Shown one piece after another: positions 11,721 through 61,234 of a stretch of 64,000 nt of DNA; position 1 is the stretch's first letter, and every line of letters starts with the position of its first letter. A program made the position numbers and the translations under genes. Below the pieces are notes generated by a model, which worked only from the letters and a program-made list of their open reading frames with translations, was not told the origin of the DNA and did no database searches. Origin of the DNA: Eledone cirrhosa (Eukaryota). The DNA is taken from the NCBI GenBank assembly GCA_964016885.1, contig OZ024740.1, forward strand, positions 167,214,001 to 167,278,000, given 5' to 3'.

Positions 11721-11839
11721 TATCGTTTTCAAGGCATTTCTCATGTTTTGTTGGTTCATTTTCATCTATATATATATATATATATATAAAATGAACTAAA
11801 ATAAATAAGTCAAATATTTAAAATTTGGCTTCGTTTATT

Positions 11840-11894
11840 ACTGCTATATATATTTCGGTGACAGCCATCTTTGGCTGTCACCTCTTCAGGCAGT
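11840..11894 (-). ncRNA. Type I hammerhead ribozyme (canonical core)
   Basis: acugc CUGAAGA ggugacagcca-aaga-uggcugucacc GAAA uauaua UA gcagu, immediately followed by AATAAA. Perfect 11-bp stem II, palindromic stem III. Confidence 0.9.
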
Positions 11895-12027
11895 CCGAAT
11901 TAGTGTGGTAGAGACGAGTATACATGTTGTTGAGGTGTTTAACTGTCAATACTCTGATATGCCCAGTTCCTGGTTGGGTTGTTATTTCACAACAACATGT
12001 ATACTCGTCTCTACCATACTAATTCGG

Positions 12028-12082
12028 ACTGCCTGAAGAGGTCACAGCCAAAGATGGCTGTCACCGAAATATATATAGCAGT
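12028..12082 (+). ncRNA. Type I hammerhead ribozyme (canonical core)
   Basis: Mirror copy of 11840-11894 with one stem II mismatch. Confidence 0.88.
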
Positions 12083-12326
12083 AATAAACGAAGCCAAATT
12101 TTAAATATTTGACTTATTTATTTTAGTTCATTTTACATTACACCGGAGTAACCAAACCAACCTGCGCAATTCGTCGAGTGCTCCATTCTGTATACTGAGG
12201 TGTTGGTATACAACCAACATATACTCAAAATATATATATATTTAGAATGTTGAGAAGTCACACACGAGTTGATATATATAATAGTAAAAAAAGAAAACAA
12301 AAGCAGTAGAAAATGTGAATGGCATG

Positions 12327-12551
12327 TCTTCTTCTTCTTCTTCTTCTTCTTCTTCTTCTTCTTCTTCTTCTTCTTCTTCTTCTTCTATTTCTTATTTTCA
12401 TCATCATCATCCTCCTCCTCCTCCTCCTCCTCCACTTCCTCTTCTTCTTCTTCTTCTTCTTCTCCTCCTCTCCTTTTTTGTTCTCCCCCTTCTACTTCTT
12501 CTTCTGCTTCTCATTCCCCTTCTCCTCCTACTACTACCACTACTTCCACTA
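12327..12551. repeat. Compound (TTC)n/(TCA)n/(TCC)n/(TAC)n microsatellite
   Basis: Direct reading. Confidence 0.95.
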
Positions 12552-12765
12552 CATTATAGGTCAACACCAAGAACATAGAACGAGCTAACCCTCATCTGCT
12601 ACTTTCACTACCATTTCTGCAGTTATAGTCAACACCACCGAGGAGAGAGAGAAAGCGATAAACAAAAATCTGAACTCTTCTATATATCTGTATGTAATCC
12701 ATGACATTTATACAATATTCTAATTAATATACAACTTAAGTCAATTTTAAATGTTATTATACACT

Positions 12766-12810
12766 TCCGTAGCATGAAGAAGCCCCTCGTTGCCGAAACC
12801 GGTACGATAA
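12766..12810 (+). ncRNA. Degenerate minimal HHR
   Basis: gc AUGAAGA agcccctcgttgcc GAAA ccgg UA. Palindromic stem III, weak stem II, AATAAA downstream, then (TA)n. Confidence 0.4.
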
Positions 12811-56995: not shown

Positions 56996-57016
56996 TATAT
57001 ATATATATAAATATAT

Positions 57017-58710
57017 AAGTTATAAGAATCAAAGTTCTGTTCAAATCAGTTATATGCTTACAATTATTTCCTACAAACCGAGGTTTGGATTCTTCGGAGT
57101 AATTTATTAATGAATGATCACATATATGACCTCCTTTTCAACCCAAGAGACATACAGATACATATGCATATATTGTTGCTTGGTGGGTCGACATCCATTA
57201 CAACATTTAGCGTGGCAGTATACATTTAAAGATTACATTCATATCAAAAGAGGATAAAATTAAAATTAATGTTAAAATACATCATGAAATTAATGCGATA
57301 GGAAAGTCAGAAGCAGTTAGTGTATGCAATAGTTACACGTGTGGCAAACACGTCTGTCTTATTTATATAATATTATTATAATATTATAGTGCGGCAGGGT
57401 GTTACATGTAATACAAGCACTTTAAGAGGGTAATCAAGAGTATCAAGGGGGCTGTACTGGTAATGTATTTTTTATATGGATGTTATAGAAGCTTGTGTGT
57501 AGAGAAATATTATAAATATTAAAAATATTAGAAATGTGTAGCAAAGCGATGATATGGTTTTCGTGTACAGCACCATTTTCACAGTCCGGAGAGCGTAATA
57601 TCTAGATTATATTCTCTTCACATATCCACGACGATTCAATATTGGACATTTGATGATTCTGTTAGAGTATCATAGTTTGTTGGTCTTTAGTCCGATATAG
57701 CAGGTTGTTTAAGTTGAGAGAATCAACATCGTATTATTTTCCGGAAGTGTGTGTGTGACTAAGGGGAGTTAATGCGTGAGGGGAGGTAACTCACTGATTT
57801 CTATAAACTAAACATTATCCTAATGTACATTAAATGGTGTCTCAAAAGAGTCCCTATCTTATATGGTTATAAACAGTTTCTAAAAAATTAAAAAATTTAA
57901 AGTGTCCTATCTATAATGTAGTCTATCAAGAAGTATTAAAGGTGTTCATATTAGGGTGATTATCCTCCATTACAGAGTGCCACAATTGAATATTTCACAC
58001 GAAGAACCAGATCTCCAAATCAATGATCATTGTAATTGTAGTCTACTCGTAGAACCTGGCAGGGTTATTATAGAATCACTTCTATATATAATAATTCCTG
58101 GTAAGCTCTGGGTGCATGTCAGATTGGATGTCAAAGTTAACTATCACTAGGGTAGACCAGAGGTCAATCCTCACTTACCATGTCACTAATCCGACCATCA
58201 ATTCATACATATATGTACAACTCATACGCCACTTGCATTTCATTCACTGCACTCAGCATATACGTTATATAGCTCATCAATGTTACTAAATTAATTAGTC
58301 TTCCAGTTATCCAACGATGACACGCCATCCGCAGAACTCCAACAGTATAATCAATTCAATGTTTACATTTTACATTAATTATATAGTGGTGTAATGTAGT
58401 TCAAGCAATTGAGGGCAGTCACACCGAAAGTAGATGTACAAAGAGGTATTTCCACTGCAAAGCGTTCTAGAGGGATGTCACTATTTGTGTTATATTGGAT
58501 CAATGAGTGTGGTGGTGTGGTATAAGGTGTGCCCTTGGGGTTTGATGCTAGAGGTGTTGCCTGGTTCAAGTCTGACATTGCTATATATTGGGTTTAAAGT
58601 TTTGGAAGGAATGTCGGAATCGGTGCTGGCAAGACGCGAACGCTCAGATTTTTTGTTAAGTAAGTTATGGTTAGAGAAGATAATAGTATGGGTCTCTAGT
58701 ATGCTGATCA
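57017..58710 (-). mobile_element. Decayed PLE 3' portion (linker, endonuclease relic, UTR, HHR)
   Basis: HHR near the TA junction. Weak GIY-YIG-like remnants at about 57800-58130. Back-to-back with the plus-strand RT. Confidence 0.45.
57055..57101 (-). ncRNA. Variant HHR (CCGAAGA core)
   Basis: uacu CCGAAGA auc-caaacc-uc-gguuug-uag GAAA uaauug UA agca. Confidence 0.65.
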
Positions 58711-58719
58711 AAGACCAAC

Positions 58720-59665
58720 TCCCTATGTCAACCAAGAACATACCTATACCATCCAAGAATACATATGAAAAATTGTTGATTGACAGTGTAAATTCTTTTA
58801 TCAATAGAGTGAGATGGAGGACATTCCATTATGATAAAAACAAATCTAACAATGTTAATAATGCTAACAAATTTGACTCCTTCGGCTTTAAAACCTTTAG
58901 AAGCCCCCCTCATAACACACTACTAAACTCCTTTGAAAATGACCTAATAAAACTAGTTAAGAACATTAAATACAATAAGCACCGTAATAGAAACAACACC
59001 TTCTTAAACAAACTTAACACCTCTATTAATGAATTCAAAACTAGTAATAAAATGATTGTACATGCAGATAAAACTAATAACGTATACAGCCTAGATTATA
59101 ATACTTATAGAAAGTTTATATATAATGAACTACATAAAAGCTACAAGAAAACTACTATGAAAAACTTAGAAGATATTAATATAGAGGGATATAATATAGT
59201 GTCTAAACTAGGACTTCAGAGGCATACACAACCATATACCCCAACCCCCCTTAGATTCTCTCTGAAGGACCATAAGGACGACTTCATTAGCAACCCCTCG
59301 ATTACACTTATCTGCCCTTCCAAGTCTGACATTGGCATTATCAGTAAGACAATTTTAGATAAAATCATCCCACAGATTAAACACAAGATATACCTTAAAC
59401 AATGGGGAAATATGTATTATTGTTGAATGGTTCAAAGACATCAAGGATAACAAGGACAAAAAATTTATTCAATTTGATATCAATTCATACTACACCTCTA
59501 TTTCCCCTATCCTATTAAATAAGGCACTAATCATGGCCATGAACAATAGCAACCTGACTAGAACCCAGATTGATGACATTCTTGCGGCCCGTAAAACCGT
59601 AATCACCTTTGAAGACCAATTATGGACCCGCAAGGATACGCACAACAACTTCGACATAACCATGT
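58720..59665 (+). pseudogene. Naiad-like PLE reverse transcriptase, N-terminal half (one frameshift near 59415; truncated)
   Basis: STKNIPIPSKNTYEKLLID..FINRVRWR..FGFKT.RSPP..FENDL..HADKTNNVY..LKDHKDDF..CPSKSDIG.ISK.ILDKI..KQW, then VEWFKDI..KFIQFDINSYYTSIS..LLNKAL..ARKT..FDITM. Confidence 0.92.
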
Positions 59666-59759
59666 ACTCAATACGTTACTCAATGTACTCAATACGTTAG
59701 TTTAGTATAGGTATCTATGCCTACCTAAAGATATCAGAAATATAAAGATTATCTGCATT

Positions 59760-60540
59760 GAAATAACAAAAAAAGGTTTTATTAACTCCTACGATTAAAG
59801 ATCAGCCAGCTATGGGATGCAAGCTCAAAGCAAAGCCAGATGTGGATGCAACCTCAAAGCAAGGACCAGTTTGTCTCCAAACGAAACTGTTACATACCGG
59901 CAAAATTAGTCACGACAAAAACATAAAATATGTTATGGAAATTAGCATATCTCCTAGTAAATCATATTTCTGAGCAGGTTCATAGTTTTGCTCTCGAAAT
60001 ACACTCGGTCTCGTAGAAGACATTAAAAGGTTACAATGAACGTTCACTTATAATATAACTTCGGTAAAATTCATTAATCAGCGGGAACATCTGAAACCAT
60101 CCTGATTTGAACAACGATGAGATTGATATATTCTTATATATGTCTGCCACTGTTTCTTTCTGGCTGCGAGCCATGAATCATGCCTACGCAAAAACAAAAA
60201 CTTGTTGTGAATATATTTCCCACAAATTGTCTCTGCATCATCTATAGCGCAACATACCAAGATCTCATAACAAATGTGGACCTTTTCACACGCACAGAAC
60301 AGTCACATCTCTATGCTCAGTTACGAAACTAGCGATTGTCATGGATTGGACATCAATTCCGGCATCCAAATAGTAACGTCCTTGTTGTGTGTCTTCTGCT
60401 ACCAGGAGGTTGCCACAAGAGACAAAGACTGAAGACCACATTCCAAATAATGGTCAGAAAAGAATAGTCAGCGCAATTCAGCAAAAAGCCAGTAATAGAA
60501 ACGTTTGGGCAGCTCTTATTTTATGTCCCTCAAGACATTA
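59760..60540 (+). mobile_element. Degenerate RTE RT C-terminal fragment
   Basis: YQDLITNVDLFTRTEQSHLYAQLRN*RLSWIGHQFRHPNS...KASNRNVWAALI. Confidence 0.65.
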
Positions 60541-60821
60541 TTACATTATTTTAATATGGTTTATATATGTGCACATATTTCTCAGTATTCTATTATTTCA
60601 TTTGAAATAATAGATATTGATTGATTGTTTGATACATGGTAGATCCTGAAGGATATTTTTTTTATTATTTGGCATTAAACAGAATTGTATTCCCAAAATA
60701 CTGCCAACTTTCAAATATCCAAGCTTCTAAACGTACTGTACAAGTAGATGAATTTATATATATATATATATATATATATATATATATATATATATATATA
60801 TATATATATATATATATATAT

Positions 60822-61234
60822 ATTATCAAGAAAACGAAAAATCAGTGATGCATCTAGATTTGGTTTATTTCGTGTTACAAATGTTTCGCCGGCAGGTAGC
60901 TCGAGTACTGGTCCTTGTATGGATCTGGCTGATTCTACTTCTGCAAGTTCTTTCAGACACGTCTGTTATGTCCGGAGCAAATTTTATCACGTGATAAAAT
61001 TTGCTCCGGACATAACAGACGTGTCTGAAAGAACCTGCAGAAGTAGAATCAGCCAGATCCATACAAGAACCATGACTCGAGCTACCTGCCGGCGAAACAT
61101 TTGTAACACGAAATAAACCAAATCTAGATGCATCACTGATTTTTCGTTTTCTTGATAATTTATACACTCTACTCTGATGAATATCGAGTGCTAATTTTGG
61201 CATACCGCCTGTGGAAGCACCATAGCTACCACTA
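60822..61234 (+). mobile_element. Family A: spacer-less palindrome 60822-61159 (centre 60990/60991) plus tail; HHR-like motifs at 60871-60961 (-) and 61020-61110 (+)
   Basis: 169-bp arms with a few mismatches. The tail has ACTC (61166)..GAGTGC (61186)..GGCATACCGCC. Confidence 0.92.

What the first reader, a model, noticed from the sequence alone, without database searches (positions are those of the whole stretch)
11787..61234. One architecture rule: the inverted arm stops just before the 3' tail
Seen in at least seven insertions: (TA)n - inverted copy without tail - optional spacer - sense copy plus 70-170-nt tail - microsatellite. Arm ends are at 12135, 13076, 24426, 25404, 29822, 53241 and 61159; 44520-44640 fits with a short overlap. 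The arm ends at an A/T-rich point within about 15 nt of the tail hairpin, while the inner ends vary (spacer 0 to ~730 bp). Known: PLEs form inverted pLTR arrangements and have a short tail extension. Inference: two priming events at the two strands of a TA target, using two defined positions on the RNA.
Basis: partly seen in the sequence, partly recalled or inferred. Interest (0 to 1): 0.7.

Follow-up and report, generated by a model that had tools for sequence, protein, structure and literature searches.

The report
Twin hairpins set Penelope insertion ends
These back-to-back repeats are insertions of Penelope-like jumping genes whose two halves almost always stop at two different fixed points, each a few bases before one of two copies of a small predicted RNA hairpin, which likely tells the enzyme to start copying once from each cut DNA strand.

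Summary
The rule is real. All seven arm ends check out; the eighth case (44520-44640) does not. The repeats are ends of Hydra-clade Penelope-like elements (PLEs) in (TA)n. Copies end at two family-fixed sites, A (arm end) and B (tail end). In tail-blind searches of three families, 50 of 51 head-to-head pairs were A+B (one unresolved), although lone copies end at either site (14 A, 19 B). A 1-Mb evenly spaced sample gave 87 lopsided against 3 symmetric repeats. In full-length copies a second bulged hairpin follows site B (34 of 39), matching the one after A. Raw reads of another study pile up at both sites, 4 nt before each hairpin. The tail-less copy is the longer one in 29 of 52 pairs, which argues against simple fold-back. 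Best reading: each nicked strand primes once, at one hairpin each, probably on one RNA. The layout and two start sites are published; I found no paper with the strict A+B pairing or the twin hairpins. This scan noted both before, in this genome and (pairing) in others. Nothing was tested biochemically.

The parts
11787..11990 (-). F12 copy ending at site A (tail-less, the longer copy here), abutting (TA)n 11768-11789
   Evidence: (L101)
11991..12229 (+). F12 copy ending at site B; hammerhead core at 12033; site A at 12135; tail 12136-12229 with decayed hairpin 1; then a short (TA)n
13005..13179 (-). Mini pair on the minus strand: tail 13075-13005, arms 13076-13179, (TA)n on both sides
22398..22662 (.). 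F61-related pair of reversed proportions: short tail-bearing stub (minus) joined at about 22506 to a tail-less copy that starts at the presumed RNA 5' end
22725..24594 (+). 716-bp arms, 274-bp spacer (orientation not determined), site A at 24426, 168-nt tail
25063..25490 (+). Pair with no spacer; site A at 25404; hairpin 1 at 25408-25429; tail to 25490; hammerhead-like core at 25302
28507..29903 (+). 295-bp arms, 734-bp spacer (orientation not determined), site A at 29822, hairpin at 29827, tail to about 29903
44535..44640 (+). Tail-only stub joined to another repeat; no inverted arm
44930..45209 (-).
50712..50883 (+). Extra mini pair of the most abundant family (F50); site A near 50798; faces another tail across (TA)n
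52735..52922 (-). F53 tail-less copy (site A) that runs to the presumed RNA 5' end
52923..53328 (+). F53 tail-bearing copy; presumed RNA start near 53054; hammerhead at 53142 (core mutated in this copy); site A at 53241; hairpin 1 at 53246-53267; site B at 53328
54025..55253 (+). F54: inverted copy ending at the downstream site (54332 equivalent) joined to a tandem of about 520-bp units that ends at the upstream site; still one end of each kind
60823..61243 (+). F61 pair; both copies start at the presumed RNA 5' end (centre 60990/60991); site A at 61159; hairpin 1 at 61166-61191; site B near 61243
61276..61616 (.). Extra pair of an F61-related family, tail-bearing copy on the minus strand
5029..9600 (-). 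Long, interrupted F61-type copy ending at site A; coding remnant at 8374-9216 ties the family to a PLE ORF

Best explanation
These are insertions of Hydra-clade Penelope-like retrotransposons whose copies end at two fixed sites, each 3-5 nt upstream of one of two repeated bulged stems in the 5' leader, and the protein likely binds both stems so that each of the two nicked (TA)n strands primes reverse transcription once, one at site A and one at site B. Shown in sequence: the two ends, the A+B pairing, the two stems (R-C-T-C / inner stem and loop / 2-nt bulge / G-A-G-Y), the TA match at each site, and lone copies of both kinds. Inferred: the stems act as RNA; two RT active sites (probably a dimer) sit on them; both cDNAs usually come from one RNA, so the B-primed cDNA must displace the A-primed one and is often cut short; both cDNAs can run to a capped 5' end; repair joins the two cDNA ends head to head through 1-10 nt overlaps or short templated patches. 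If only one priming succeeds, a lone A or B copy results. The 'tail' is then simply the distance between the two stems.
For: Pairing: 50 A+B, 0 A+A, 0 B+B and 1 unresolved among 84 distinct insertions from three tail-blind searches; lone copies 14 A and 19 B (hand count; p about 2e-15 against free choice). Sample: 87 lopsided against 3 symmetric in 1.0 Mb, about 30 tail clusters. Second stem after B in 34 of 39 ORF-linked copies of three families. It was seen first in F53 and then found in F12 and F61 copies fetched by ORF sequence alone. The outer pair varies as A-U or G-C (65 and 24) and inner pairs vary between families; 89 of 144 motif hits have (TA)n 30-110 nt downstream against 6.7% of random positions. 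Raw reads of another study leave the F61 leader into (TA)n at two places, 4 nt before each stem: 267-309 and 528-623 reads per run. The A copy is longer in 29, the B copy in 13, equal in 10 of 52 pairs; several B copies stop within 20 nt of A. Arms agree at subfamily sites: 25 of 187 pair-sites discordant against 69 expected. Inner ends pile up at one position per family: 19 of 42, 13 of 26, 9 of 36 against 1-1.5 expected. In vitro precedent: PMC11167929.
Against: No biochemistry and no RNA data. The stems are weak on their own (-3 to -9 kcal/mol) and the predicted fold for F12 stem 1 differs. A strict descriptor finds two copies in only 4 of 9 full-length leaders; F53 stem 2 often has one inner pair; the L182, L140 and Fq2 second copies are degenerate. 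Only 32 of 71 sample tails carry the GAG-Y-R-C half-motif, and no full-length copy was found for F50, F55 and other families. Four exceptions (three B+B, one A+A). In two pairs, one of them the window's 52735 locus, one copy stops at the 5' pile-up while its partner runs past it, which one RNA leader cannot explain. Two F53 columns show 16 of 51 discordant pairs against 22 expected. Shared variants could also reflect a common source locus or gene conversion. In vitro the Poseidon enzyme used both start sites on both strands and needed no homology, so it does not predict strict pairing. Target duplications cannot be read in (TA)n, and no empty sites were available.
Confidence: 0.74

Rival explanations
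1. Same two-stem twin priming, but on two RNA molecules (or on the 5' and 3' pLTR of one long RNA) held in an asymmetric complex; no strand displacement is needed. This is a variant of the best explanation, not exclusive of its core.
For: Two of 16 pairs mix a copy that stops at the 5' pile-up with one that runs beyond. Arms differ by 1.7-3.0%. Rare B+B and A+A pairs exist. RNAs from one active locus would also share subfamily variants.
Against: It needs an extra rule to forbid A+A and B+B. The 5'-end status is shared in 14 of 16 pairs (p=0.009, hand-classified). B copies cut short just past A suggest a collision on one template.
Confidence: 0.3
2. Fold-back or self-priming: one cDNA primed at B folds back and is copied until site A (self-priming was proposed in PMC3846280).
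For: 43 of 71 sample cases align through the centre with no spacer. Arms share variants. Some junctions carry inverted templated patches.
Against: The arm cannot be longer than the strand it copies, yet it is longer in 29 of 52 pairs. 14 lone copies end at A with no partner in view. Junctions are scattered over hundreds of bases.
Confidence: 0.07
3. Site A is made by the endonuclease cutting the cDNA or an intermediate next to a DNA form of the stem, not by priming (tail as 'EN-mediated resolution', PMC8557442).
For: Both sites are TA-rich, as an endonuclease target would be. PMC11167929 recounts that the Drosophila Penelope endonuclease needs tail DNA for recognition. Covariation does not tell RNA from single-stranded DNA.
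Against: RT starts were mapped at both tail ends in vitro (PMC11167929). The same geometry holds at B, whose stem is not copied into the insert at all. G-U-type pairs occur in the stems.
Confidence: 0.12
4. Assembly or library artefact (fold-back chimeras at TA repeats).
For: No reads of this individual were available; no head-to-head joint passed the listing threshold in raw reads.
Against: Arms are 85-100% alike, not identical. Spacers reach several kb and hold nested insertions. Ends are family-fixed. Independent raw reads show both ends.
Confidence: 0.02

Closest known systems
Hydra clade of C-terminal EN+ Penelope-like elements (Craig et al. 2021, PMC8557442; passages and section 11 read)
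   Same: [quoted passage not shown]
   Different: The paper gives 30-40 bp tails and ascribes them to endonuclease resolution. Here tails are 23-176 nt (median 77). The passages read report no A+B count and no repeated stem.
Poseidon element PAc of Anolis in vitro (Frangieh et al. 2024, PMC11167929; main-text parts 1-2 of 4 and text of supplements 1-2 read)
   Same: Both strands cut and extended in AT-rich DNA; two internal RT start sites in the 5' region bound the tail; dimer predicted; hammerhead cleavage not needed.
   Different: Other clade. No homology to the target and no strand preference in vitro; one AC-rich stem-loop named, no repeat described; inverted pairs not explained. By eye, the RNA printed in Fig. 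S1 has two short words (GAAAG, ACAACA) each twice, 34-36 nt apart; this is an untested lead.
Inverted pLTR plus optional tail in Adineta Pen2a and relatives (Arkhipova et al. 2013, PMC3846280; passages and Discussion read)
   Same: Head-to-head inverted pLTR, tail on one of them, TATA and initiator-like motifs in the pLTR, microhomology joins.
   Different: Explained there by self-priming, perhaps on an antisense template; the arm-length data here argue against that.
L1 twin priming (Ostertag and Kazazian 2001; paper not held; mechanism recalled, name seen in listings)
   Same: The second target strand primes on the RNA; the two cDNAs are joined head to head.
   Different: In L1 the second site is variable and the two pieces barely overlap. 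Here it is fixed, signalled by a stem, and the upstream region is copied twice.
Non-LTR retrozymes (bioRxiv 10.64898/2026.07.22.740005, parts 1-2 of 5 read; PMC4209133, passages)
   Same: Hammerhead-bearing pLTR-derived short repeats; the F54 tandem at 54025-55253 resembles them.
   Different: Most short copies here are truncated products of coding elements, not tandem units.

Membership tests
EN+ Penelope-like element | Single ORF with RT and C-terminal GIY-YIG-type endonuclease | tested here: met
   711-aa ORF in L362 (family Fq2) with YRDD and YVG motifs read by eye; ORF pieces linked to F53, F61 and F12 pLTRs. Pfam gave no hit for four such pieces and the PDB none, so this rests on motifs.
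EN+ Penelope-like element | pLTR in partial tandem or inverted arrangement, running into the ORF | tested here: met
EN+ Penelope-like element | Hammerhead ribozyme motif in the pLTR | tested here: met
   Core and stems at 12033 and in F53. Not seen in the window's F61, 13076 or 24426 copies. Rfam listed none among the 150 of 199 rows shown. Cleavage not tested.
EN+ Penelope-like element | RT phylogeny within PLEs | not tested
   No named reference proteins were in hand; the 150 best homologues are unnamed.
EN+ Penelope-like element | Target-site duplication | not testable with these tools
   Insertions lie in (TA)n; no related genome is held.
Hydra clade | RWK motif and DKT in place of DKG | tested here: met
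   RWK in Fq2 and F12, RWR in F53 and F61; DKT in F53, F61 and Fq2.
Hydra clade | CxCx5C linker | tested here: met
   Present in F53, Fq2, F61 and F12 pieces.
Hydra clade | No CCHH motif; CxxC and CxH around the conserved E and N | tested here: met
   CxxC and CxH seen in L362, L032 and L309; absence of CCHH judged by eye.
Hydra clade | Short element and (TA)n targets | tested here: met
   ORFs of 711-750 aa; nearly all tail ends abut microsatellite.
L1-type twin priming | Variable second priming site and non-duplicated inverted piece | tested here: not met
   The site is family-fixed and the arms duplicate each other. It works like twin priming but is not the L1 form.
Non-LTR retrozyme | Non-coding tandem units each with a type I hammerhead | tested here: inconclusive
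   Only F54 is tandem; its ribozyme was not examined. F53, F61 and F12 have coding full-length copies.

The most novel reading that the evidence does not exclude
PLEs integrate by programmed twin priming. A duplicated RNA element positions two telomerase-like RT sites on one RNA, each taking one strand of the cut target. The tail, the inverted pLTR and the mass of short stubs are all direct products of this. The duplication may be general across PLE clades, with tail length equal to repeat spacing (about 85 nt here, about 35 nt in Poseidon).
Probability: 0.45. Interest if true: 0.8.

Novelty: new variant of a known kind. Interest (0 to 1): 0.62.

Why it matters
How PLEs, the closest mobile relatives of telomerase, make their inverted ends and one-sided tail is stated as open in the papers read (PMC8557442, PMC11167929). 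The twin stems give a concrete cis signal and three sharp predictions for the existing in vitro assay: loss of one stem removes one end class, spacing sets tail length, and products are A+B. It also explains a major repeat class here: 87 such structures per Mb in a 3-Gb genome. It gives annotators a rule for PLE boundaries.

Tried and rejected
Homodimer prediction for residues 1-480 of the L362 protein: 'no answer', score 0.00, alignment not used; no evidence either way. Sequencing-run search: no RNA holder listed. Reads came from other samples and were mostly 90-99% alike, so they do not test this individual's junctions; no head-to-head joint was listed for raw reads, and one contig joint of opposite strands was. 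Rfam: the 150 rows shown were all below gathering scores and mostly driven by microsatellites. Pfam: 1 of 9 queries hit (a LINE RT piece). PDB sequence search: 0 hits. Hammerhead cleavage as the cause of inner ends: rejected for F53, where the predicted cut lies about 50 nt upstream of A, inside the arms, while ends pile up about 185 nt upstream. Re-copying of ready-made palindromes: unlikely, since inner junctions differ between loci. Full-length copies for F50, F55 and most other sample families were not found in the DNA held. Empty orthologous sites: no related genome is held. One search timed out after L084; the rest was classified. Set aside from the 223 sample repeat rows before counting: 63 with neither end at a microsatellite and 68 with (TA)n inside, of which 16 had both ends at a microsatellite (11 from one satellite in L150, 5 others).
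Full report
Observation. Each arm abuts (TA)n and overlaps it by 2-4 bases. Tails are 71-168 nt and end in a microsatellite. The tentative eighth case fails: the 8-bp arm at 44522-44542 lies inside another repeat and has no (TA)n flank, and the element match begins at the tail. At least five further cases lie in the window (22398, 45003, 50712, 54025, 61276).

More than chance. I fetched 100 evenly spaced 10-kb stretches of the own genome and scanned them without any family model. 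Of 223 inverted-repeat rows, 63 had no end at a microsatellite and 68 had (TA)n inside; these were set aside. The rest were 89 lopsided rows (87 after merging) and 3 symmetric ones. In 71 of the 87 a microsatellite followed 23-176 nt beyond the free arm end (median 77). They fall into about 30 clusters with a fairly fixed tail length per cluster. The TA match at the arm end averaged 2.7 nt against 0.95 at control positions. Five of the set-aside rows, outside one satellite, have both ends at microsatellites and could add to the symmetric count.

What the elements are. Family F53 (53241) runs in full-length copies from pLTR and tail into an ORF. So do F12 (12135) and F61 (61159). The proteins show RWK/RWR, DKT, a CxCx5C linker and CxxC/CxH endonuclease motifs, the features given for the Hydra clade in PMC8557442 section 11. 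This is motif matching by eye; no tree was built, and Pfam and PDB gave nothing for these proteins. Hammerhead cores are present in F12 and F53. Over 30 of 150 hits lie in open frames above 700 aa (hand count), so the group is young.

Two ends, strictly paired. Three searches used body sequence only, so they were blind to the tail. The 90 loci are 84 distinct insertions. By hand count, 50 are head-to-head pairs with one copy ending at A and one at B, one pair is unresolved, and 33 show no partner (14 A, 19 B). None was A+A or B+B; free choice predicts half (p about 2e-15). 'No partner' means none within 1.5 kb, or about 7 kb for the 20 loci extended; four of the 50 pairs were found only by that extension and are assumed to be single events. 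Exceptions came from other sets: B+B at L017, L021 and L029 (tail-including search) and A+A at L156.

Not fold-back. In 52 A+B pairs the tail-less copy reaches further upstream in 29, the tail-bearing copy in 13, and 10 are within 5 nt (p=0.02). A strand folded back on itself cannot give an arm longer than its template. Several B copies stop within 20 nt past A (L077, L092, L094, L096) or inside the tail (L106), as if blocked by an earlier cDNA. Of 55 junction rows, 29 overlap by 1-10 nt, 5 are blunt and 21 hold extra bases, some copied from nearby sequence; that resembles end-joining repair (my knowledge, not tested).

One source for both arms. Arms differ by 1.7-3.0% against 2.4-4.3% for copies from different loci, and share derived variants 4-8 times more often. 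At polymorphic columns 25 of 187 pair-sites disagree against 69 expected. At the four clearest F53 columns it is 1 of 74 against about 25, but two columns show 16 of 51 against 22. Inner ends pile up at one initiator-like position per family: 19 of 42, 13 of 26 and 9 of 36 within 5 nt, against 1-1.5 if uniform. The search design excludes very short central copies. About half of some 14 junctions that start exactly there have a G in front, four of them not explained by the partner; this hints at a copied cap. In 14 of 16 pairs where both copies reach that point, both stop or both pass (p=0.009, hand-classified). Two pairs, one of them the window's 52735 locus, are mixed. A shared source locus or gene conversion could also produce these signals, so one RNA is favoured, not shown.

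The twin stems. After site A the three families carry a stem that opens with RCTC, has an inner stem and loop, a 2-nt bulge and closes with GAGY. In full-length F53 copies a second such stem follows site B, with G-C in place of the outer A-U pair. I predicted the same for F12 and F61 and fetched their full-length copies by coding sequence alone; both have it. It is present in 34 of 39 ORF-linked copies under a relaxed descriptor; the other five carry point changes (one false anchor hit dropped). A fourth family (L147) has both stems; L182, L140 and Fq2 have degenerate second copies. A strict descriptor finds two copies in 4 of 9 leaders, against 0.002-0.03 hits per shuffled leader. In the 1-Mb sample 89 of 144 motif hits have (TA)n 30-110 nt downstream (random 6.7%; 32 in the upstream control), with A-U/G-C and inner-pair variation. 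Both sites lie 3-5 nt before their stem. Only 32 of 71 sample tails carry the half-motif, so other families use other signals or other stems.

Raw reads. Reads from three RAD-seq runs of another study, laid on a full-length F61 leader, leave it into (TA)n at L341:944 (267-309 reads per run) and L341:1031 (528-623), each 4 nt before a stem. Depth falls from over 500 to under 10 after the second site. Smaller piles at 933-935 and 1023 come from diverged relatives or subfamilies. These reads support the two ends as real DNA. They are not from this individual and did not list palindromic joints.

Mechanism. Most likely the endonuclease nicks both strands of (TA)n, two RT sites are held on the two stems, each target 3' end pairs with a few UA bases just 5' of a stem, and both cDNAs run upstream and are joined head to head. 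Shown: ends, pairing, stems, overlaps, length asymmetry. Inferred: RNA-level binding, two active sites, a single template, strand displacement, the cap and the repair route. I give 0.74 to the core and roughly even odds to one RNA.

What is known. The inverted pLTR with a one-sided tail is described (PMC3846280; PMC8557442). Two internal RT start sites bounding the tail, with both strands cut and extended, were shown in vitro for a Poseidon element (PMC11167929). Six searches found no paper with the strict A+B pairing or a duplicated stem; subscription papers are not covered. The RNA printed in that paper's Fig. S1 seems to repeat two short words at 34-36 nt spacing (by eye).

Earlier notes of this scan. 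I reached the twin-stem reading before looking (note). Searches then showed that many agents reported it for other windows of this genome, and two-ended priming and cap-G hints for other genomes. These are unchecked AI notes and are not counted as support.

Verdict. A real, genome-wide rule in a known class of elements, with a specific and testable cis signal that I did not find in print. New variant of a known kind; interest 0.62.

Noticed in passing
window 54025-55253; L186: Non-coding tandem unit of about 520 bp (F54) with two end sites about 115 nt apart, each followed by a bulged stem of different sequence; retrozyme-like.
   Followed up: partly
L262-L274, 330 nt before the ATG: Family Fq2 seems to carry three stem-like copies in its leader; whether a third end class exists was not checked.
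   Followed up: no
window 50808-50973 and 61195-61300; L006/L064; L053: Tail-to-tail pairs facing each other across a short (TA)n. L006 has only a few bases between two full tails. They may be separate insertions or a second product type.
   Followed up: no
window 23252-23334 and 23821-23899: Both arms of the 716-bp pair contain a matching (CA)n(TA)n tract of similar length, so microsatellites are copied as part of the element.
   Followed up: no
L081, L086, L089, L018, L117 inner junctions: Short inverted or repeated patches copied from the copy's own 5' end, like templated repair insertions.
   Followed up: partly
window 37820-38323 (-): LINE-type reverse transcriptase fragment (Pfam RVT_1, E 1.4e-8).
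   Followed up: no
window 58434-59426 (+): 330-aa open frame with no Pfam hit; a weak tblastn match to a PLE N-terminus lies in 58716-59039.
   Followed up: no
L295:2286-5463 (-): Broken ORFs that look like a Helitron replicase-helicase (recalled motifs, not tested).
   Followed up: no
window 55918-57017: Nested inverted copies of one family with internal (TA)n; the arm end at 56363 is not followed by the usual stem.
   Followed up: no
sample loci of F50 and F55: All 45 and 21 tail ends found run into microsatellite; no coding full-length copy was seen, so these abundant families may be non-autonomous.
   Followed up: partly
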